From assembly GCA_000092065.1 (NCBI GenBank), contig CP000581.1: a stretch of 64,000 nucleotides of DNA; one strand, given 5' to 3'. The position numbers and the translations under genes were made by a program. The stretch's first letter is position 1; each line of letters begins with the position of its first letter. Shown here piece by piece: positions 46,791 through 55,376 of the stretch. Below the pieces are notes generated by a model, which had not been told where the DNA came from, did no database searches, and was given only the letters and a program-made list of their open reading frames with translations. This stretch comes from Ostreococcus lucimarinus (lineage: Eukaryota).

Positions 46791-46963
46791 GTCTCGTCTC
46801 TCGTATACAAACACTCCAGATCGCCGTCGCGCGTCGACGCGAGGCGCGTCGACGCGCGTGATAAATTAAGTAAATCACACGCGCGCGGCGCCGACGCGTG
46901 CGATTTTCGCCGCGCGCGAGAAATCGCGACGCGCGCGTCGGCACGTCGCGACGCGCGGTCGCG

Positions 46964-49900
46964 ATGGCGTTCGGTGGATTCGGTGGGTTCGGCGCGGCGC
47001 AGCAGCCGCCGTCGCCGTTCGGCGCGGCGCAGCAGCCGCACAGCGGCGCGTTCGGCGCGACGGGGGCTCGACCGGCGACGACGGGCGCGTTCGGCGGTGG
47101 ATTCGGGGGGCAGGGCGCGGCGAGCGGGGGGTTCGGGAGCGCGATCGGCGGCGCTGGGAGCGGCGCGCCGGGCGCGGCGCGGGCGGTGGCGGACGCGTGC
47201 AAGTTTTGGAACCGCGGGAGCTGTAAATTCGGGGCGCGGTGTAACAATAAGCACTGCTGTTCAAAGTGCGGATCGACGGCGCATCGCGCGGTGAGCTGCT
47301 CGATGACGCCGGGGGTGAGCGGATATCGAGCGACGCGGGTGATGGATAAGGAGCTGTTGACGCCGGGGACGTCGTACGCGATGGTGCACTCGATCAGCGC
47401 GATGCCGGAGAATTTGGGGAAGAGCGCGGAGGAGATTCGGGCGGCGGCGTACGCGAGCGCGGATCAGCCGGCGACGAGCGCGGGTGGGTTCGGGGCGCCG
47501 GCGGCGACGAGTCCGTTCGGGGGGACGACGGGGGGAGGAAGCGCGTTCGGGGGGGCGAGCGGGGGAGCGTTCGGAGCGAGCGCGACGCCGGCGAGTCCGT
47601 TTGGGGCGCCGAGCGGGGGTGCCTTCGGAGCGTCGACGTCGACGCCGGGCGGTTTCGGGGCGTCAGCCGCGCCGAGCGCTTTCGGCGCACCGTCGGGAGG
47701 CGGAGCGTTCGGATCATCGCCCACGGGTGGGTTCGGGGCGCCCGCGGCGGCGCCGAGCCCGTTTGGCGGCGCCGCGACGCCGTCCGCTTTCGGAGCGCCC
47801 GCGAGTTCGGCGCCGAGCGGCGGTTTGTTCGGGTCCACGACAGGCGGTTTCGGCGCTTCTCCGGCGTCTTCCGCGTTCGGGGCGCCGTCGACCACGAGCG
47901 CGTTCGGGGCGAGCGCGCCGACGCCGGGTGCTTTCGGCGCCACGCCGTCGGCGAGTCCGTTTGGGGCGGCGCCTTCGACGCCGGGCGCGTTTGGGGCGCC
48001 GGCTTCGACGCCCGCTTTCGGCGCATCGGGCGCGTTTGGCGCCGCACCGACGCCGAGTGCGTTCGGAGCGCCGTCGTCTACGCCCGCGTTCGGTGCAGCG
48101 CCCGCGTCTAGCCCTTTCGGCGCCGCGCCCGCGGCGGCGAGTCCGTTCGGCGCGGCGCCGTCGACGCCGGCATTCGGTGCGGCGCCGACACCGGGCGCGT
48201 TCGGCGCGGCGCCATCATCCGGTGGCGGACTGTTCGGCGCGGCGCCTTCGACGGGTGGTGGTTTGTTCGGTGCGTCTGCGCCTTCCACTCCAGGCGCGTT
48301 CGGCGCGAGCACGCCCGCGCCCGGAGGATTTGGCGCTCCAAAGCCCGCGGGCGGGCTGTTCGGCGCTGCGCCGTCGACGCCAGCGACTGGGGGGCTGTTT
48401 GGTGCTAGTACAGGTGCAACCACTCCTGGCTTCGCCGGTTCAACGCCAGGGTTCGGCGCAGCACCGTCCACGGGTGGTTTGTTTGGCGCCTCGGCTCCGG
48501 CAACCGGAGGCGGCGGTTTGTTTGGCGCCGCGCCGTCTGCGGCGGCGACGCCTGCGTTCGGTGGATTTGGCGCGTCTGCGGCGACACCCGCGTTTGGTGC
48601 ATCTTCTGCGGCGTCCGGTGGTTTGTTCGGTGCATCCGCGCCGACTTCTGCGCCAAGCGGTGGACTGTTTGGCGCCGCGCCGACGTCTTCGCCCGGCGGC
48701 GGTTTGTTCGGCGCTTCGGCACCGGCGACCGGCGGTGCCTTCGGTGGCGGACTTTTCGGTGCCGCGAAGCCCGCGAGCGGTGGACTTTTCGGCGCCGCCC
48801 CGACGACCGGAGCTGCTCCTGGTGGCGGACTGTTTGGTGCGTCGGCTCCGACGTCGGCGCCGAGCGGCGGTTTGTTTGGCGCGGCTCCGACGGCGGGTGG
48901 TGGATTGTTTGGCGCTTCCGCACCCGCCGCTGGAGGTAGCATTTTCGGCGCAGGGGGGCTTGGAGCCTCGCAGCCGGCGATGGGTGCGCTCGTACCTTTC
49001 GGCGCTCAGCCTGCCGTTGCGTCCACTCCGTACGGGTCACCACTTCAGCCTCCGCAGCTCGCGCTGGCGACGACGGACCAAGCCCAAGCGAAGAGATCTT
49101 TGCTCGGTAAGATGCAAAGCCCAGCCGCTGGTGCCGCGGCGACGGCATTCCCAGTGCGTTCGCTGACGCCACGCTCTCCTTGGCTCACGAGCCGCGGTGG
49201 GTTAAGCCGCGAACCGAAGCCGCGTGGCGGCGCGTCTTTGCCGTCTCCTGGAGGCGCGGCACAAGCCATCGGAACACCCACTTCGGCTGCTCGCCCTGGG
49301 AGCGCGGTGTCCGTGGCCACGCCATCGAGTGGTGGGTGGTTGTTCAAGCCACGCGAGAATCCTCGCGCGCTCTTCATTCGCCCAGAGGGTGTTTCTGCTT
49401 CGCCAGCGCCGTCAGTCGCGCTCGCGGTTTCGCCGACGCGCGCAGATCAAAGCCCGGAACGTCGTCAAGTCCATTTCGCAGAGGACAAAGAAAACACTCC
49501 GGGTAAAGGCGCACCGGTTAGTCACAATATCATCATGCCGAAGCTCACTTCTGAAGGCTACAGCATGAACCCGACGCTTGAACAAATGGAAAGAATGTTT
49601 GAGCGCAGCGGCGACGACGCCCTCGCGGCGGTGGACAACTTTTCTGTGTCGAACGAAGCTTTCGGTCGCGTAAAGTGGCTCGAGCCCGTCGATGTTCGTG
49701 GCTTGGATCTCGATAAAATCGTGTCTTTCGAGCAGGCGTGCTTGTGCCTGTACCCCGAAGATCAAGGTATCGAGCCGCCGGAAGAGGGTGAAGGTTTGAA
49801 GAAGCGCGCCGAGGTAACGCTGTACGGAATCTTGCCGAAGAAGTCTGGCACCGCCGCCAAGGAAAAGTATCGCGAGAAGATTGTGAAACAAACCGAAAAA

Positions 49901-49966
49901 GCGGGCGCCGAACTCGTAGAATACAACCCAGATACAGGGATTTGGAAATTCATCCTGCAACTTTGA
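46964..49966 (+). CDS. NUP98: Nucleoporin NUP98-like: GLFG/FG-repeat domain, embedded CCCH+CCHC zinc fingers, C-terminal autoproteolytic (Nucleoporin2) domain
   Basis: More than 60 FG/GLFG repeats. The C-terminus (..KRAEVTLYGILPKKSG....KQTEKAGAELVEYNPDTGIWKFIL) aligns with the NUP98 autoproteolytic domain. At 47198-47299 sits C-x7-C-x5-C-x3-H followed by C-x2-C-x4-H-x4-C. Start is the ATG at 46964 (MAFGGFGGFG). Confidence 0.8.
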   Translation: MAFGGFGGFGAAQQPPSPFGAAQQPHSGAFGATGARPATTGAFGGGFGGQGAASGGFGSAIGGAGSGAPGAARAVADACKFWNRGSCKFGARCNNKHCCSKCGSTAHRAVSCSMTPGVSGYRATRVMDKELLTPGTSYAMVHSISAMPENLGKSAEEIRAAAYASADQPATSAGGFGAPAATSPFGGTTGGGSAFGGASGGAFGASATPASPFGAPSGGAFGASTSTPGGFGASAAPSAFGAPSGGGAFGSSPTGGFGAPAAAPSPFGGAATPSAFGAPASSAPSGGLFGSTTGGFGASPASSAFGAPSTTSAFGASAPTPGAFGATPSASPFGAAPSTPGAFGAPASTPAFGASGAFGAAPTPSAFGAPSSTPAFGAAPASSPFGAAPAAASPFGAAPSTPAFGAAPTPGAFGAAPSSGGGLFGAAPSTGGGLFGASAPSTPGAFGASTPAPGGFGAPKPAGGLFGAAPSTPATGGLFGASTGATTPGFAGSTPGFGAAPSTGGLFGASAPATGGGGLFGAAPSAAATPAFGGFGASAATPAFGASSAASGGLFGASAPTSAPSGGLFGAAPTSSPGGGLFGASAPATGGAFGGGLFGAAKPASGGLFGAAPTTGAAPGGGLFGASAPTSAPSGGLFGAAPTAGGGLFGASAPAAGGSIFGAGGLGASQPAMGALVPFGAQPAVASTPYGSPLQPPQLALATTDQAQAKRSLLGKMQSPAAGAAATAFPVRSLTPRSPWLTSRGGLSREPKPRGGASLPSPGGAAQAIGTPTSAARPGSAVSVATPSSGGWLFKPRENPRALFIRPEGVSASPAPSVALAVSPTRADQSPERRQVHFAEDKENTPGKGAPVSHNIIMPKLTSEGYSMNPTLEQMERMFERSGDDALAAVDNFSVSNEAFGRVKWLEPVDVRGLDLDKIVSFEQACLCLYPEDQGIEPPEEGEGLKKRAEVTLYGILPKKSGTAAKEKYREKIVKQTEKAGAELVEYNPDTGIWKFILQL

Positions 49967-50117: not shown

Positions 50118-51077
50118 CTAACGATCGGCAGCTGGTAAGTACACGCCACCCTTTCCGACGACCCAACGCGCGCCGCATTCGGACAGTTTCGCGAACGCTT
50201 GGGCAAACTCGAAGAAGAACGCGTCTTGGTCGCGAGCGTAGCGCATAAAATGCGGTGCGAATCCGGGATCGGTATGTAAGACGCGATCAGTGCTCAACCA
50301 TAAAAGATTTTTGTCATCCGATCCACCCTCGGTGAAGTACGAGTTGTCGAATTTCAGCCAGCAAGAGGTCCACGACGCCCCACCCGGCATGCCGAAATCG
50401 CCGTCTCCATCACCCTTTGGACTAAACGGACACCCGCCCGTGTACTTCGTCGCATTCTTCACCCCGTACCCGTACTCCGTCGTCCCACTTCTTTCCTTAA
50501 ACGCCCTCCCGATCGTGTGCGCCCCGCTCAGCGCCACGATTTCTCTGTCGTCGAATCCGAGTCGCCCGAATACTCTTCTCAAATGTTCCCCGGGCGTCTT
50601 CGACCCATCGCCGAACGGCGCCTCCGCGTCCGGTAGATTCCCCTCCCTCGCCGGTTCGTCGGAATCCTTCCGTCCGTACTTCATCGGAATCCGTGGTCCG
50701 CCCGCGCTTTCGATCGCGCACGCGCCGCACAGCTGAATCGCGTCCGCGTGGCTCAGCGCCGGAAACCGCTCGACGATCTCTCGCGCGTAACCCAACGCCT
50801 TCTTCAGGCCCGCGTTCGCGCCGTGCGCCAACTCGGCGTCGAACCTGATCGACCCGTTCGCGCCGCCGCACCTCGGCCACGCGTCCGCCGCCGTCGCGTC
50901 GAACGTTCCCGCGTCGTGCCACGCCAATCGCACCATGATTGGATGGCACTTTCGCGCGTCGAGCATCGCGAACGCGGCCTCGCGCGCGCCCTCGAGCGCG
51001 CGGCAGTACTCCCGCGCGTCGTCGTCGATGAAGTGCTCGCGCACGGCGCCGACGCGTCGCGCGGGGGCGGTGGACAT
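50118..51077 (-). CDS. APX: L-ascorbate peroxidase (class I haem peroxidase)
   Basis: Distal and proximal haem-pocket motifs: IMVRLAWHDAGTFD, LSGAHTIGRA, and the proximal His/Trp region. Start is the ATG at 51075-51077 (MSTAPARR). The longer ORF-tool N-terminus runs antisense through the neighbouring SDR gene. Confidence 0.85.
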   Translation of the reverse strand: MSTAPARRVGAVREHFIDDDAREYCRALEGAREAAFAMLDARKCHPIMVRLAWHDAGTFDATAADAWPRCGGANGSIRFDAELAHGANAGLKKALGYAREIVERFPALSHADAIQLCGACAIESAGGPRIPMKYGRKDSDEPAREGNLPDAEAPFGDGSKTPGEHLRRVFGRLGFDDREIVALSGAHTIGRAFKERSGTTEYGYGVKNATKYTGGCPFSPKGDGDGDFGMPGGASWTSCWLKFDNSYFTEGGSDDKNLLWLSTDRVLHTDPGFAPHFMRYARDQDAFFFEFAQAFAKLSECGARWVVGKGGVYLPAADR

Positions 51078-51129
51078 CGCCTCGCGCGTCGACGGGCGGC
51101 GAAAAGTGTCGTCACTTCGCGCCGACGTC

Positions 51130-51981
51130 ATGACGGCGCTCGTCACGGGCGCGACGGATGGGATCGGCCTGCACACCGCGCGAAGGCTCGCGGCGAGCGG
51201 GCGCGACGTGCTCGTGCACGGACGAGACCGCGAGCGCGTGCGAAGCGCCGTCGAGGCCGTGCGGAAACACGCGCGCTCGGAAAAACAAGTCATCGAAGGC
51301 TTGACGCGAGACCTCTCGTCGTTGGAAGACGTGCGCGCGCTCGCGCGCGACGTCGTGGACGGACGCGGGGACGTGTCGATGCTGTTCAATAACGCGGGGG
51401 TGTACTCGACGAAGGAGACGCGGTGCGCGAACGGGCACGAGATGACGTTCGCGGTGAACGTGCTGGCGCCGTTCGCGCTGTGCGGGTTACTGTTACCGAC
51501 GCTCGCGGCGAACGCGCGGCGAACGGGGACGAAGTCGAGCGTGTTGAACGTGGCGTCGATTTCGGCGGCGCCGGCGATTGATTTTGACAACTTGCGGTGC
51601 GAAAAGATGTTTTCGCCCCACGGGTCGTACGCGCAGAGCAAGGCGTGCATGAAGGCGTTCTCGTACGAGCTGTACGATAGATTAGCGAGAGGAGCGCTAT
51701 CCGGGGCGAGCGTGGAAGATTTAAACGTGTTCTCGTGCGATCCAGGGACCGTGAACACGAAAATGCTGTTGGCGGGATGGGGTCGGTGCGGTATCGAAAC
51801 GTACGAAGCGAACGATGAATTTACAATCATGGTGGACGACATCGAAAGGAACGGCGCGAAACACAACGGGGCGTACTTTGTTAACGCCGCACCGCAACCT
51901 CGTCGAAGCGAGGCCGGTGATGTAGACCAGGCGAAACTCTGGCGACTCCTCGAACAAGAAACGGGCGTCGTCTACGCCTAA
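51130..51981 (+). CDS. Short-chain dehydrogenase/reductase (SDR, retinol-dehydrogenase-like)
   Basis: TGATDGIG cofactor motif, NNAG, and the YAQSK catalytic Tyr-x3-Lys. ATG at 51130. Confidence 0.8.
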   Translation: MTALVTGATDGIGLHTARRLAASGRDVLVHGRDRERVRSAVEAVRKHARSEKQVIEGLTRDLSSLEDVRALARDVVDGRGDVSMLFNNAGVYSTKETRCANGHEMTFAVNVLAPFALCGLLLPTLAANARRTGTKSSVLNVASISAAPAIDFDNLRCEKMFSPHGSYAQSKACMKAFSYELYDRLARGALSGASVEDLNVFSCDPGTVNTKMLLAGWGRCGIETYEANDEFTIMVDDIERNGAKHNGAYFVNAAPQPRRSEAGDVDQAKLWRLLEQETGVVYA

Positions 51982-52025: not shown

Positions 52026-53747
52026 TCATCTACGAACGACGACATAATGGCGCGAACGCCGGCGCGCGCGACGTTTTAGCGCTAATCGAATACGAACGAC
52101 ACAGAACAAGAGCGTCGAGCTGATGAGAAACGCGTGCCAATACGTGTACCATCCACTTTCGTCGTCGGGCGTCGTCGCAAAGTCTTTTTCGACTGCTCGC
52201 AACGGTTCGTCCTCCCGTGCGTCCTCGAAAGAGTGGAGTTCGTCTTCAACCTTGTCGTCCCGGACAGTCGACGCTCCATCATTCATAGGCTTGTTTAAAT
52301 CATTCTGAGTTTCCGTCTCCTCCTTCACCGCTTCTTTCTCAGGCGGACAACAACGAGACTCGCATCGCACCGTACACGTGTCGCAAGATCGCGGACAACT
52401 TTGCAGCATAAACGACGGGTTCTTCTCGCATTCACCGTCGTGCGCCCATCCGCAACACATATCATTCGTGTCTCGACATTCTTCTTCGTCGTCGTCACCG
52501 CCGCCGCCGCGAAATGTGTCGTCGGTGTTCTTTCGCTCGCTGCACGACAACACGCCGCGAGCGTCCTTTGAACAAGAGTAATGTATCTTGCGAGTATCGA
52601 TCGGATTCGCGATACCGCATCGCTCTATCGCGTACTGGCGCGTCGCGTTGTACAAACCCCACGCGCACACTAATGCGACCTCGTCACGCCGACGTTGAGG
52701 GCCTTTGCTTCGCAATTCGGCGAGCGTTGGCGGCCGTTGAAACAACTCTGGGGTCGGACATCCGAGTACAGATCTGTGAAACCATTGCTTATCGAACGCG
52801 TAATCTTGGACGTTGAACGTCAAGCCGTAGTGCAAAACGACGGGAAATCTAGAATCACTCGGTGGATCGTACCCAGGATACAGCATGAAGTCGTCATGCA
52901 CTTGAAACGTGATGCCCACCTCCGCCGCGGCGAAGACGTACCCGTACATTTCGGATATCCACGGCGGACCGTATTTGCCGTTCGCGTTGTATATGTCTCC
53001 GGTGTTAGCCCAAGAGTCCGGGTCCTGACGCACTTCCTCGGTCCAATACAGCCATCTCGGCGCGAGTTTGCGCATATCCTCCCTGTGCATCACCGTGAAA
53101 CCGCCCACTTGCTGCGCCTTTTCCACGTTCCGCACGCGCGCCTTCACTCCCATGTGACTCTCCGGTTGGGTCCCGATCAAGTACCCATACTTCGCGCTCA
53201 CCGGCGCCCCTCTTCGCACACCGAGTAAATCCACCGTCATCGGCGCTCGAAAGATCATATCCGCGTCTAACACGATTATAAAGTCCGCCGTCACCTCGGC
53301 GTTCGTCAACCAGTGATGAATACTAAACGGCTTGTTATACGCCGTGTACGAATCCTTCGTCACCGGATGCGTGGCGTAATTAGGATGCACGTGCGTGTCC
53401 GGAACCACTCGCAAACTCGGCGAGTTCTCGTCGTCGCACGCCATGAGTCGAGTGAATTTACCCCTCTGTCCGACGCGTCGCCAACTGTCGTACAACCCGT
53501 ACGACTGCCAATCAAAGTACCCGTTACACTCCGTGCTGAACACCGTGTGCATGCTCGCGCCGTCGCGCGCGTCCGCGACGCCGCGATCGTCGCCCGCGTC
53601 GCCTCCGAGCGCGTCGGCTTCGCTCGAGATCGCCGCGACGCTCGCGAGCGTCGCGCACATCGCGCGCGCGAATCCATTCGTCCCGACGCCGCGCCGCGCC
53701 GCGCGCCGTCGACCGGCGCGTCGCGCGCGCGCTTCGTCGCGCGCCAT
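52026..53747 (-). CDS. Peptidyl-serine alpha-galactosyltransferase / hydroxyproline O-arabinosyltransferase family glycosyltransferase (SGT1/HPAT-like), with ShK-type domain and C-terminal TM anchor
   Basis: Family hallmarks: HTVFSTECNGYFDWQS.GL, ...HW.....DF...LDADM, WISEMYGY.FAAAE, YPGY. ShKT-like CRDTNDMCCGWAHDGECEKNPSFMLQSCPRSCDTC. C-terminal hydrophobic WYTYWHAFLISSTLLFCVV. Both the ATG at 53747 and the ATG at 53660 are valid. Confidence 0.75.
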   Translation of the reverse strand: MARDEARARRAGRRRAARRGVGTNGFARAMCATLASVAAISSEADALGGDAGDDRGVADARDGASMHTVFSTECNGYFDWQSYGLYDSWRRVGQRGKFTRLMACDDENSPSLRVVPDTHVHPNYATHPVTKDSYTAYNKPFSIHHWLTNAEVTADFIIVLDADMIFRAPMTVDLLGVRRGAPVSAKYGYLIGTQPESHMGVKARVRNVEKAQQVGGFTVMHREDMRKLAPRWLYWTEEVRQDPDSWANTGDIYNANGKYGPPWISEMYGYVFAAAEVGITFQVHDDFMLYPGYDPPSDSRFPVVLHYGLTFNVQDYAFDKQWFHRSVLGCPTPELFQRPPTLAELRSKGPQRRRDEVALVCAWGLYNATRQYAIERCGIANPIDTRKIHYSCSKDARGVLSCSERKNTDDTFRGGGGDDDEEECRDTNDMCCGWAHDGECEKNPSFMLQSCPRSCDTCTVRCESRCCPPEKEAVKEETETQNDLNKPMNDGASTVRDDKVEDELHSFEDAREDEPLRAVEKDFATTPDDESGWYTYWHAFLISSTLLFCVVRIRLALKRRARRRSRHYVVVRR

Positions 53748-53892: not shown

Positions 53893-54563
53893 CGCGCCTC
53901 ACGAGCGCTACGTCGGCCCGATCCGCCAAAACGCCCGCGCCTTCGCCTCCGCGCTCGCCGTCGCGCCTCGCGCGTCGTCCATCGACGCGCGTCTCGACGC
54001 CGCGTCCTCGTCGCCGCTCGCCCTCGGCTCGCGCGTCTCGTCGACGCTCGCGCGTCGTCGCCTCGCCTCCGCCGCCGCCGCCGCGAACACGTTCCCGGCG
54101 CAGTCCCCGTAGGGGTCCTCGCCGAGAAACGTGACGTCTTCGTCCGTCCACGACATCATCCATCGATCGGCGAACGTCGACGGCGCGCGCGACGCGTCGT
54201 CGGCGGCGTCGGCGGTCGATCCGCGCGGTGCTGACGCGGCGCGTCGGCGCGATGCGTCGGCGTCGTCGCGTCGCGTCGTCGTCGACGCGGGCCCGCGCGC
54301 GGAGTAGAGCTTGCTCGCGAGGTCGCGAAACATCGAGGTTCGGTCGGCGCGCGCGTCGGACGTCGTCGTCGGCGCGCGCGTCGCGGTGTCGCGTCGGCGG
54401 TCGGGGTCGGTGCCGAGGCGTTCTTTTTGTATGCGCAAACAGTCAGACGACGCGTTTCCCGAGGCGCATCATCGCGCGCAGAGTCCCCCGCCGGCGCGAA
54501 TCGTCGCGACGCGGATTCGGCGCGTCGCGCGCGGCGCATCGCGACGCGCGCGTCGCGGTCGAG

Positions 54564-55376
54564 ATGTCGCGCGCGACGTCGCTCGCGCGCGCGATCGCGC
54601 CGCGGGCGCGCGCGCGCGACGCGACGCGACGGCGAACGGGCCGGGTCGCGGGACGCGACCGGCGTCGCGTGCGTCGCGCGGTCGTCGCGCGCGCGACGGG
54701 GGAGGACGCGACGCGTCGACGCGCGATCGACGCGAGCGATGCGAACGCGGTGGCGCGCGCGGCGGCGGCGCTGCGACGCGGCGGCGTGATCGCGGTGCCG
54801 ACGGATACGATTTATGGATTCGCGGCGAGCGCGGCGAACGGCGACGCGGTGCGGCGGTTGTACGAGATCAAGGGGCGACGCGCGGGCGTGCCGCTGGCGA
54901 TCGCGGTGGGAGACGTGCGCGACGTGGGGACGTACGGTGACGATGGACACCTGAGAGAGGGCGCGCTGGCGCGGTTGCTGCCGGGACCGACGACGGTTTT
55001 GTTGCGGCGACGGCGCGGCGACGCGGGACGCGCGACGCCCGAGTTGAATCCGGGGGTGGATTTGATCGGGATTCGCGTGCCGGCGCACGATTTCGTGCGC
55101 GAGGTGTGTCGCGCGCACGGCGGAGCGATCGCGCTGACGAGCGCGAATAGATCTGGGGAGACGAGCGCGACGGCGGCGGAGGAGTTCGCCGAGCTCTGGG
55201 ACGCGTGCGACGAAGTCTTCGACGGGGGGGCGATTCCGGCGAAGCGTTTAGGAAGCACGATCGTGGATTTGAGTTCGCGCGCGAATGATTTTGCCATCGT
55301 TCGCGCGGGCGAGCGCTGCGACGAGCTCGTTCGCGTGCTCGAGGGCGAGTTCGCGATGACGCGGCGAGACGCGTGA
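54564..55376 (+). CDS. YrdC/Sua5-domain protein (threonylcarbamoyl-AMP synthase, t6A biosynthesis)
   Basis: G.....PTDT.YG....A.....V.R...IK.R....PL.....D.....Y, ..LPGP.T..LRR and ..IG.R.P.H.....L.....P...TSAN.SG form the YrdC fold signature. ATG at 54564. Confidence 0.7.
   Translation: MSRATSLARAIAPRARARDATRRRTGRVAGRDRRRVRRAVVARATGEDATRRRAIDASDANAVARAAAALRRGGVIAVPTDTIYGFAASAANGDAVRRLYEIKGRRAGVPLAIAVGDVRDVGTYGDDGHLREGALARLLPGPTTVLLRRRRGDAGRATPELNPGVDLIGIRVPAHDFVREVCRAHGGAIALTSANRSGETSATAAEEFAELWDACDEVFDGGAIPAKRLGSTIVDLSSRANDFAIVRAGERCDELVRVLEGEFAMTRRDA

What the first reader, a model, noticed from the sequence alone, without database searches (positions are those of the whole stretch)
52026..53747. 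SGT1/HPAT-family cell-wall glycosyltransferase fused to a ShK (ShKT) domain and anchored by a C-terminal TM helix
The catalytic region matches the plant/algal peptidyl-Ser alpha-galactosyltransferase and Hyp O-arabinosyltransferase family (HTVFSTEC..YFDWQ, WISEMYGY, YPGY). Downstream lies a six-Cys ShK-like module (C.D....CC.W...G.C..NP.FM...C..SC..C), and the only strong hydrophobic helix is at the extreme C-terminus. This implies type-I topology like Chlamydomonas SGT1, not type-II like HPATs. ShK domains are otherwise typical of prolyl-4-hydroxylases acting on the same HRGP substrates. The fusion may mark a substrate-recognition module shared across the Hyp/Ser-glycosylation pathway.
Basis: partly seen in the sequence, partly recalled or inferred. 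Interest (0 to 1): 0.55.

Follow-up and report, generated by a model that had tools for sequence, protein, structure and literature searches.

The report
Algal SGT1-type glycosyltransferase with ShK domain
This is a genuine but ordinary gene of a marine green picoalga: a membrane-anchored sugar-transferring enzyme related to the plant enzyme that puts galactose on serine in hydroxyproline-rich proteins, and its small cysteine-rich ShK module is the standard accessory domain of this enzyme family in algae.

Summary
The ORF at 52026..53747 (minus strand, 573 aa) is real. It has a signal-peptide-like N-terminus, one GT-A catalytic module (Pfam HPAT family, E=2e-21), a ShK domain (above Pfam's cut-off), a disordered acidic stalk, one C-terminal TM helix and an Arg-rich tail.

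The best named homologues are land-plant peptidyl-serine alpha-galactosyltransferases (SGT1, GT96), at 40-45% identity per module. The closest solved folds are retaining alpha-1,3-Gal/GalNAc transferases (GT6).

The fusion is not unusual. Among 78 near-full-length representatives of this family, 50 carry a Pfam ShK domain, placed between the catalytic module and the TM helix. They include Mamiellophyceae, Chloropicon, Tetraselmis, Trebouxiophyceae, Chlorophyceae, Mesostigma and a haptophyte. UniProt already labels several "ShKT domain-containing protein". Land-plant SGT1 is the derived form, with two tandem catalytic modules and no ShK.

The ShK is the same subtype as on algal prolyl-4-hydroxylases (about 52% identity). 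In plant type-2 P4Hs this domain was shown experimentally to be a Golgi-localisation and membrane-association domain. That makes a localisation or complex-assembly role more likely than substrate recognition.

I could not compare it directly with HPAT (GT95) sequences. Verdict: a new member of a known kind, of low to moderate interest.

The parts
52026..53747 (-). Complete single-exon CDS (573 codons plus stop) of the SGT1-like/ShK type-I membrane glycosyltransferase
   Evidence: ORF list. A 99%-identical database protein, P0001. The exact protein occurs on metagenome contigs. Colinear orthologues.
53610..53747 (-). N-terminal targeting region, residues 1-46: an Arg-rich n-region, the hydrophobic core A29-I40, and an A-D-A motif before L47. 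This is a probable cleavable signal peptide. An alternative start at Met30 (nt 53660) is possible.
   Evidence: Hydropathy. Orthologues and land-plant SGT1s have hydrophobic N-termini at the same place. 544-aa database variants exist. No SignalP was run, so the cleavage site is inferred.
52524..53564 (-). Luminal catalytic GT-A module plus a conserved Cys-containing C-terminal extension (residues 62-408)
   Evidence: Pfam PF23452 over residues 67-312. AlphaFold pLDDT is mostly above 90 over residues 62-408. Foldseek top hits are GT6 retaining alpha-1,3-Gal/GalNAc transferases (E about 2e-9). 40-45% identity to each module of land-plant SGT1. C330, C377, C392 and C402 are invariant.
53259..53267 (-). 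D161-A-D163, a DxD-type motif. Its role in binding the nucleotide-sugar and metal is inferred.
   Evidence: Invariant in 27 algal orthologues. D161 and D163 are conserved in at least 90% of 78 family representatives. Both modules of plant SGT1 have LDADM.
52938..52961 (-). W263-I-S-E-M-Y-G-Y270, the most conserved family motif and probably part of the active site
   Evidence: W263, E266, M267, Y268 and G269 are conserved in at least 90% of 78 representatives and invariant in the orthologues. The functional role is inferred.
52374..52481 (-). ShK (ShKT/Tox1) domain, residues 423-458, with the six canonical Cys plus an extra one (the C431-C432 doublet)
   Evidence: Pfam PF01549. Match to the MMP23 ShK structure. 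AF2 pLDDT 78-90 with short helices at 431-450. The Cys residues are invariant in orthologues. 50-60% identity to ShK modules of algal P4Hs.
52341..52373 (-). Cys-rich extension after the ShK domain (C462, C466-C467-P-P)
   Evidence: C462 is nearly invariant, and the CCPP motif is conserved in the Mamiellophyceae-type orthologues. Function unknown.
52152..52340 (-). Acidic, low-complexity luminal stalk (residues 470-532)
   Evidence: AF2 pLDDT is below 50 over residues 472-532. Length and sequence are not conserved among orthologues.
52077..52151 (-). Single C-terminal transmembrane helix (about residues 533-557)
   Evidence: The only strong hydropathy peak. AF2 predicts a helix at 532-565. Present at the same place in nearly all full-length algal and plant homologues.
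52029..52076 (-). Short Arg-rich cytosolic tail (KRRARRRSRHYVVVRR)
   Evidence: Read directly from the sequence. The Arg-rich tail is conserved in the closest orthologues. Any role in ER/Golgi retrieval is inferred only.

Best explanation
The gene encodes the picoalgal, single-module form of the SGT1 (CAZy GT96-type) family. The closest relatives suggest a Mamiellophyceae alga, probably Ostreococcus-like.

It is a type-I membrane glycosyltransferase of the ER/Golgi. A signal peptide sends the N-terminus into the lumen. A GT-A catalytic domain with a DxD motif sits in the lumen. It is tethered through a ShK domain and an acidic flexible stalk to one C-terminal TM helix, followed by a short Arg-rich cytosolic tail.

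The most likely reaction is retaining transfer of alpha-galactose from UDP-Gal to Ser residues next to hydroxyproline runs in secreted or surface Hyp-rich glycoproteins. This activity is inferred from homology, not shown.

The ShK domain is the ancestral accessory module of this family. It is the same subtype as the Tox1/ShK domain of P4Hs. It most likely acts as a disulfide-stabilised protein-binding module that holds the enzyme in the correct Golgi/ER sub-compartment, or in a complex with the hydroxylation and glycosylation machinery.

Shown here: domain composition, conservation, fold and topology heuristics. Inferred: donor and acceptor specificity, localisation and ShK role.
For: - Domains: Pfam HPAT-family and ShK hits above their cut-offs.
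- Homology: the best named homologues are land-plant SGT1, with whole-protein E about 1e-130 to 1e-141. Identity is 40-45% to each of their two modules. Chloropicon and Micromonas-like orthologues are named 'peptidyl serine alpha-galactosyltransferase' by NCBI.
- Distance from the HPAT model: the window protein scores 76.9 bits on PF23452. Plant SGT1 scores about 68 bits per module (135 bits over two stretches).
- Fold: the AF2 model is confident (pLDDT above 90 over residues 62-408). Its nearest solved folds are GT6 retaining alpha-1,3-Gal/GalNAc transferases that use UDP-Gal or UDP-GalNAc.
- Conserved motifs: the DAD and WISEMYGY motifs are invariant.
- Topology: there is only one strong hydrophobic segment, at the C-terminus, and the N-terminus looks like a signal peptide. 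Plant SGT1s have the same layout.
- ShK is ancestral and standard: 50 of 78 representatives have a Pfam ShK domain, always between the catalytic module and the TM helix. Taxa span prasinophytes, core chlorophytes, Mesostigma and a haptophyte.
- Same ShK subtype as P4H: mean identity is 0.52 to P4H ShKs and 0.50 to SGT ShKs of other species.
- Experimental precedent: the Tox1/ShK of plant type-2 P4Hs targets GFP to the Golgi, increases membrane association and needs its cysteines (PMC11275109).
- Background: SGT1 is GT96, localises to the ER and Golgi, and requires Hyp in its substrate (PMC4908140).
Against: - No enzymatic or localisation data exist for this protein or any algal ShK-bearing homologue.
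- Identity to characterised SGT1 is only 40-45%, and the family is large and diverse (1,538 representatives at E<=1e-3). Donor or acceptor specificity may therefore differ.
- I could not include HPAT1-3 or Chlamydomonas SGT1 sequences, so GT96 membership and orthology rest on named best hits and a rough, unsupported NJ tree.
- This protein already has a TM anchor, so a luminal localisation domain is less obviously needed than in soluble type-2 P4Hs.
- Similarity between the SGT and P4H ShK modules may only reflect the general green-lineage ShK consensus. I had no control set of ShK domains from unrelated algal proteins.
- The signal peptide is inferred from heuristics and orthologues, not from a trained predictor.
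Confidence: 0.6

Rival explanations
1. The ShK domain is a substrate-recognition module. It would bind Hyp/Pro-rich acceptor proteins and be shared by P4H and SGT so that both engage the same HRGP substrates.
For: The same ShK subtype is found on algal P4Hs and SGT-like enzymes, which act successively on the same motifs. ShK is retained between the catalytic module and the TM helix across very distant lineages, which implies strong selection. In one lineage a P4H-ShK gene lies directly upstream of the SGT-ShK gene (the merged model P0040).
Against: Land-plant SGT1 recognises Ser-Hyp4 substrates without any ShK domain. Type-1 plant P4Hs also lack it (PMC11275109). The published experiments on Tox1 show Golgi targeting and membrane association of a GFP fusion that has no catalytic domain or substrate context. 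The P4H-SGT adjacency is absent in the window and in three other lineages I checked.
Confidence: 0.15
2. The enzyme is not a Ser alpha-galactosyltransferase. It would be a family member with another specificity, for example a Hyp O-arabinosyl- or O-galactosyltransferase, or a transferase acting on scale or surface glycans.
For: The Pfam model that matches is named for HPAT, and GT95 and GT96 are related families (PMC8012813). Identity to SGT1 is only 40-45%. The family is very large and diverse in algae and other protists. Chlorophyte Hyp glycans differ from those of land plants (PMC5371791).
Against: All named top hits are SGT1, and none is HPAT. Type-I topology matches SGT1, whereas HPATs are type-II. 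The rough tree follows organismal phylogeny, as expected for one orthologous lineage. The closest solved folds are retaining alpha-Gal/GalNAc transferases.
Confidence: 0.2
3. The ShK module has a role unrelated to trafficking or substrate. Examples are covalent dimerisation through the extra cysteines, acting as a rigid spacer, or binding an ion channel or other membrane protein as animal ShK domains do.
For: The luminal part has an odd number of cysteines. There is a conserved extra Cys in the ShK (the CC doublet) and a conserved C-x3-CCPP extension in the closest relatives. MMP23's ShK domain, the best PDB sequence match, binds a potassium channel (PMC11275109 discussion).
Against: The CC doublet and the CCPP motif are confined to the prasinophyte clade, whereas the ShK domain is family-wide. 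There is no evidence for channel binding in any plant or algal ShK domain.
Confidence: 0.05

Closest known systems
SGT1, peptidyl-serine alpha-galactosyltransferase (CAZy GT96; Arabidopsis At3g01720, tobacco, Chlamydomonas; Saito et al. 2014)
   Same: The catalytic module is homologous (40-45% identity) and shares the DAD and WISEMYGY motifs. Both have a signal peptide plus a C-terminal TM helix, i.e. type-I topology. The type-I description of SGT1 in the original paper is from my own recollection, because that paper is not held.
   Different: Land-plant SGT1 has two tandem catalytic modules, 59% identical to each other, and no ShK domain. The window protein has one module followed by ShK. I could not determine whether Chlamydomonas SGT1 carries a ShK domain.
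HPAT1-3, hydroxyproline O-arabinosyltransferases (CAZy GT95)
   Same: Same Pfam superfamily model (PF23452). GT95 is described as related to GT96, and both act on the same Ser-Hyp(n) motifs (PMC8012813).
   Different: HPATs are type-II Golgi proteins with an N-terminal signal anchor. This protein has a signal-peptide-like N-terminus and a C-terminal anchor. No HPAT appears among the 120 best homologues. No direct sequence comparison was done.
Plant and algal type-2 prolyl-4-hydroxylases with a C-terminal Tox1/ShK domain
   Same: Same ShK subtype (C-x-D-x4-C-x2-WA-x2-GEC-x2-NP-x-FM-x3-C-x2-SC-x2-C), with about 52% identity to algal P4H ShKs. Both are luminal enzymes of the Hyp-glycoprotein pathway.
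   Different: The catalytic domain is unrelated (2OG-Fe(II) oxygenase). Type-2 P4Hs have no TM helix and depend on Tox1 and the catalytic domain for Golgi association (PMC11275109). Here the ShK domain sits next to the protein's own membrane anchor.
GT6 retaining alpha-1,3-Gal/GalNAc transferases (human GTA/GTB, bovine alpha3GT, Bacteroides BoGT6a)
   Same: These are the closest solved folds to the predicted catalytic domain (Foldseek E about 2e-9, target-normalised TM-score 0.5-0.64). They share the GT-A fold, UDP-Gal/GalNAc donors and alpha-retaining chemistry.
   Different: Sequence identity is only 9-12%. They use glycan rather than peptide acceptors, animal GT6 enzymes are type-II, and none has a ShK domain.
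Algal proteins already in databases with the same architecture (Chloropicon primus 'peptidyl serine alpha-galactosyltransferase'; 'ShKT domain-containing protein' of Myrmecia, Coccomyxa and Raphidocelis)
   Same: The same catalytic-ShK-TM layout, and homologous throughout.
   Different: They come from different lineages (41-66% identity for the aligned algal orthologues). None has been characterised experimentally, and none is discussed in the literature I could search.

Membership tests
SGT1 / CAZy GT96 | The catalytic module is homologous to characterised SGT1, and is closer to SGT1 than to other named families | tested here: met
   All of the top named hits are SGT1 (whole-protein E about 1e-130 to 1e-141). 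Identity is 40-45% to each module of Phoenix, Marchantia and Salvia SGT1.
SGT1 / CAZy GT96 | Type-I membrane topology (cleavable signal peptide, luminal catalytic domain, single C-terminal TM helix) | tested here: met
   Hydropathy shows only a C-terminal TM helix and a short N-terminal hydrophobic core. Plant SGT1s and the algal orthologues have the same layout. AF2 predicts a helix at 532-565. These are heuristics only; SignalP and DeepTMHMM were not run.
SGT1 / CAZy GT96 | Formal CAZy assignment to GT96 rather than GT95 | not tested
   No CAZy/dbCAN tool and no HPAT sequences were available. The afdb50 library was unavailable. The only indirect evidence is the PF23452 score, 76.9 bits here against about 68 bits per plant SGT1 module.
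SGT1 / CAZy GT96 | UDP-Gal:peptidyl-Ser alpha-galactosyltransferase activity that requires neighbouring Hyp | not testable with these tools
   This is a biochemical property (PMC4908140). The only supporting observation is fold similarity to retaining alpha-Gal transferases.
SGT1 / CAZy GT96 | Two tandem catalytic modules, as in all land-plant SGT1s examined | tested here: not met
   The window protein has a single module. This is the algal form, shared with Mesostigma and the chlorophytes.
HPAT / CAZy GT95 | Type-II topology with an N-terminal signal anchor | tested here: not met
   The N-terminal hydrophobic core is only about 12 residues long (KD19 1.22), and the protein has a C-terminal TM helix. 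HPAT topology is taken from PMC8012813.
HPAT / CAZy GT95 | Match to the Pfam HPAT-family model PF23452 | tested here: met
   76.9 bits against a cut-off of 23.9. The model also matches bona fide SGT1, so it does not discriminate between the two families.
HPAT / CAZy GT95 | Closest homologues are HPAT1-3 orthologues | tested here: not met
   None of the 120 best homologues is named HPAT. The name 'Hydroxyproline O-arabinosyltransferase-like domain-containing' appears only on SGT1-type two-module proteins.
ShK / ShKT domain (PF01549) | Profile match above the gathering score, with the six-Cys pattern | tested here: met
   26.9 bits against a cut-off of 20.9, covering the full model length 1-37. 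The six canonical Cys are invariant in orthologues. Matches the MMP23 ShK structure 2k72.
ShK / ShKT domain (PF01549) | Compact helical fold held by three disulfides (C1-C6, C2-C4, C3-C5) | tested here: inconclusive
   AF2 gives pLDDT 78-90 and short helices at 431-450. I could not inspect the disulfide geometry, and the extra Cys (C431/C432) makes the pairing ambiguous.
Tox1 Golgi-localisation domain of type-2 P4H | Same ShK sequence subtype as the P4H Tox1 domains | tested here: met
   Mean identity is 0.52 to 11 algal P4H ShK modules, and up to 0.60.
Tox1 Golgi-localisation domain of type-2 P4H | Sufficient to retain a secretory reporter in the Golgi, and dependent on its cysteines | not testable with these tools
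   This was shown only for tobacco, Arabidopsis and rice P4H Tox1 domains (PMC11275109).

The most novel reading that the evidence does not exclude
The ShK/Tox1 module is an ancient shared address or assembly tag of the Hyp-glycoprotein modification pathway. It would predate the split between chlorophytes and streptophytes and also occurs in a haptophyte. It would bring P4H and the SGT-type transferase to the same still-unidentified Golgi receptor or into one complex. The membrane-anchored SGT-ShK enzyme could even be part of the membrane platform to which soluble P4H-ShK enzymes attach. Land plants would then have lost the tag from SGT1 when the catalytic module was duplicated in tandem.
Probability: 0.25. 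Interest if true: 0.55.

Novelty: new member of a known kind. Interest (0 to 1): 0.3.

Why it matters
For the genome scan, this is a correctly read but ordinary conserved gene. Its wider value is comparative. Outside land plants, the SGT1-type transferase normally carries the same ShK/Tox1 module as type-2 prolyl-4-hydroxylases. The characterised land-plant enzyme is a derived tandem-module form without it. I found no discussion of this in the searchable literature.

The Golgi receptor of the Tox1 domain is still unknown (PMC11275109). A second ShK-bearing enzyme in the same pathway, in a tractable picoalga with few genes, offers a simple way to test three alternatives: whether ShK is a localisation tag, a complex-assembly module or a substrate-binding module. 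It also indicates that wall-less picoalgae keep a Ser/Hyp O-glycosylation machinery.

Tried and rejected
- A ShK-only homologue search (residues 416-470), meant as a census of ShK partner proteins, returned nothing because no candidate shared three 5-residue words.
- The AFDB50 fold search, meant to compare SGT1 and HPAT1-3 by name, was unavailable.
- The original SGT1 paper could not be read by DOI or by PMC id.
- SPPP-type motifs at 47-49 kb on the minus strand looked like a possible HRGP substrate gene. They are the antisense frame of a GLFG-repeat nucleoporin gene and were rejected.
- A conserved P4H-SGT gene neighbourhood was suggested by the merged model P0040 and by matching contig lengths. 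It was not confirmed within 7 kb in the P0014, P0018 and P0002 lineages or in the window.
- A search of viral contigs for relatives of the gene, as possible prasinovirus homologues, found none.
- An N-terminal signal anchor (an ordinary type-II HPAT) was rejected on hydropathy and on comparison with orthologues.
- An organelle transit peptide, suggested by the Arg/Ala-rich N-terminus, was rejected. The protein has a disulfide-rich ShK domain and a C-terminal TM helix, and its orthologues have clear signal peptides.
Full report
**Observation.** The minus-strand ORF 52026..53747 encodes 573 aa. Pfam gives two domains above their curated cut-offs. The HPAT-family model PF23452 covers residues 67-312 (76.9 bits, E=2.3e-21). 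The ShK model PF01549 covers residues 423-458 over its full length (26.9 bits, E=7e-6). The ShK block also matches the solved ShK domain of MMP23 (2k72, E=1.4e-3). It is the only ShK-pattern match in all six frames of the window. The exact protein is found on several marine metagenome contigs with identical neighbours. A 76%-identical orthologue lies in a syntenic locus: YrdC/Sua5, small ORF, this gene, short-chain dehydrogenase, peroxidase, nucleoporin. Transcriptome-derived orthologues such as Mantoniella have the same layout.

**Anatomy and topology.**
- Hydropathy finds one strong segment, 539-557 (KD19 1.94).
- The internal peak at about 150-175 is the core beta-strand that carries the DAD motif.
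- The N-terminal stretch 26-41 is short (KD19 1.22; 11-residue windows reach 2.05). It follows an Arg-rich n-region and precedes an A-D-A motif, which is the layout of a signal peptide.
- Orthologues and all land-plant SGT1s have hydrophobic N-termini at the equivalent place, followed 20-30 residues later by the HT[VIL]FS[TV]EC start of the catalytic domain.
- The AlphaFold model (27-sequence alignment, mean pLDDT 77.7) is confident for residues 62-408 (mostly above 90), for the ShK domain (78-90) and for a helix at 532-565.
- The linkers 409-421 and 472-532 have pLDDT below 50, so the ShK domain is flexibly tethered between the catalytic domain and the membrane.
- The deduced order is: signal peptide, luminal GT-A domain, ShK, a short C-x3-CCPP extension, an acidic stalk, the TM helix, and an Arg-rich cytosolic tail. 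This is type I.
- No trained signal-peptide or topology predictor could be run, so the cleavage site is an inference. 544-aa database copies match a start 29 residues downstream, at Met30.

**Family assignment.** The 120 best homologues fall into two groups.
- Algal proteins of 490-760 aa carry PF23452 and usually PF01549.
- Land-plant proteins of about 800-900 aa are mostly named 'peptidyl serine alpha-galactosyltransferase'.

BLASTP shows that the land-plant proteins contain two tandem copies of the module, 59% identical to each other in Phoenix. The window module matches each copy about equally, at 40-45% identity. On the Pfam HPAT model the window protein scores 76.9 bits and plant SGT1 about 68 bits per module, so it is about as far from that model as genuine SGT1. 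No HPAT-named protein appears among the hits.

The literature states that GT95 (HPAT) and GT96 (SGT1) are related families and that HPATs are type-II Golgi proteins (PMC8012813). SGT1 is GT96, is found in the ER and Golgi, and needs Hyp next to the acceptor Ser (PMC4908140). Foldseek against the PDB returns GT6 retaining alpha-1,3-Gal/GalNAc transferases almost exclusively among its top 50 hits (E about 2e-9, target TM-score 0.5-0.64, 9-12% identity). That is consistent with a GT-A retaining alpha-galactosyltransferase. The DAD motif (161-163) and the WISEMYGY motif are invariant in the orthologues and at least 90% conserved across the family.

A direct comparison with HPAT sequences or CAZy HMMs could not be made. 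The AFDB library was unavailable, and the original SGT1 paper is not held.

**How unusual is the ShK fusion?** It is not unusual.
- An exhaustive search with the catalytic module alone found 1,538 cluster representatives at E<=1e-3, and 158 at E<=1e-30.
- Among the 145 newly retrieved representatives out of the 150 best, 58 have a ShK Cys pattern. It almost always lies 30-100 residues after the catalytic module and before a C-terminal TM helix.
- A Pfam scan of the 77 representatives of at least 450 aa plus the window protein found PF23452 in all 78 and PF01549 in 50. The only other partner domain was PA, in 2.
- Named members with the same layout come from Chloropicon, Mantoniella, Tetraselmis, Micractinium, Myrmecia, Coccomyxa, Chlorella, Raphidocelis, the early-diverging streptophyte Mesostigma and the haptophyte Diacronema. 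UniProt already calls several 'ShKT domain-containing protein'.
- A rough NJ tree of the catalytic modules (no support values, midpoint-rooted) roughly follows organismal phylogeny. It places the two land-plant modules in two separate groups within one ShK-less streptophyte clade.

The simplest reading is that catalytic-ShK-TM is ancestral, and that land-plant-type SGT1 lost the ShK domain and duplicated the module.

**What the ShK domain probably does.** A search with the P4H-ShK part of a merged gene model (P0040) retrieved algal prolyl-4-hydroxylase C-termini with ShK domains. The window ShK is on average 52% identical to these (maximum 60%). It is 50% identical on average to the ShK modules of SGT-like enzymes from other species. 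The two enzyme classes therefore use the same ShK subtype. I had no control set of ShK domains from unrelated algal proteins, so this may only be the green-lineage consensus.

- it targets secretory GFP to the Golgi;
- it increases membrane association;
- it requires its cysteines.

They postulate an unidentified integral-membrane receptor. Land-plant SGT1 and type-1 P4Hs handle the same substrates without a ShK domain. The weak point is that this protein already has its own membrane anchor. The P4H-SGT adjacency seen in P0040 is not found in the window or in three other lineages.

**Context.** The neighbours show no functional link, as expected for a compact eukaryotic nuclear genome. They are YrdC/Sua5, a short-chain dehydrogenase, an ascorbate-peroxidase-like gene, a GLFG nucleoporin, and an asparagine-synthase-like gene with DUF3700/GATase_7 domains. 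Window GC is about 0.51-0.72. Together with the identity ladder to Mantoniella-, Bathycoccus- and Micromonas-like sequences, this suggests an Ostreococcus-like Mamiellophyceae alga. That is an inference, not a demonstrated identification. PMC5371791 reports SP3-4 repeat proteins encoded in O. tauri and Micromonas, and no Hyp-Araf4 in O. tauri. No viral relatives were found.

**Verdict.** The gene is a new member of a known kind. The comparative point, that ShK is the ancestral accessory domain shared with P4H and lost in land-plant SGT1, did not appear in the literature I could search. It is of modest specialist interest.

Noticed in passing
P0083 (Phoenix), P0024 (Marchantia), P0036 and P0209: not in the window: Land-plant SGT1 proteins consist of two tandem copies of the catalytic module, 59% identical to each other in Phoenix. 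Both copies keep the LDADM motif. In a rough tree the module-1 and module-2 copies of liverwort, moss and angiosperm sequences form two separate groups, so the duplication predates land-plant diversification.
   Followed up: partly
P0040 (783 aa, ENA contig of 407 kb): This is a merged gene model: the C-terminus of a prolyl-4-hydroxylase plus its ShK domain, then a signal peptide and the SGT-like module, then a frameshifted ShK. In that alga a P4H-ShK gene therefore lies directly upstream of the SGT-ShK gene on the same strand. The adjacency was not seen in four other lineages.
   Followed up: partly
window 52341-52460 (residues 431-432 and 462-469): The prasinophyte-type SGT ShK modules have a conserved extra cysteine (a CC doublet at the second Cys position) and a conserved C-x3-CCPP extension just after the ShK domain. 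Both are absent from P4H ShKs and from most other SGT-like clades. This gives an odd number of luminal cysteines, which could allow an intermolecular disulfide.
   Followed up: no
window 46898-49966 (+): A 1,022-aa ORF with GLFG/FG repeats and a C-terminal Nucleoporin2 (Nup98-type) region. Its antisense frame (47464..48942 -) gives a long, spurious Pro-rich ORF with SPPP motifs that could be mistaken for an extensin-like gene.
   Followed up: yes
window 50118-51981: An ascorbate-peroxidase-like gene on the minus strand (319 aa in the metagenome gene calls) sits tail to tail with a short-chain dehydrogenase gene on the plus strand (283 aa). The mechanical ORFs overlap heavily because of the high GC content, so ORF lengths in this window overstate gene lengths.
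   Followed up: partly
window 54228-55376 (+) and 53908-54438 (-): A YrdC/Sua5-family gene lies upstream of the SGT-like gene. Between them is a small conserved ORF (about 141 aa in the gene calls) with no Pfam match. Both are syntenic in the 76%-identical relative.
   Followed up: no
P0216/P0354 (Diacronema lutheri) and many unnamed metagenomic representatives: The SGT-like catalytic-ShK-TM architecture also occurs in a haptophyte. A large clade of unnamed metagenomic sequences is of unknown taxonomy. The family is therefore not restricted to the green lineage.
   Followed up: no
alignment A2 (family representatives): Two of the 78 near-full-length SGT-like representatives carry a PA (protease-associated) domain, the only accessory Pfam domain other than ShK.
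   Followed up: no
window 53660 (Met30): Several database copies of this protein are 544 aa long, which matches a start 29 residues downstream, at Met30 rather than Met1, so the true start codon is ambiguous. Either start keeps the hydrophobic core of the signal peptide.
   Followed up: partly
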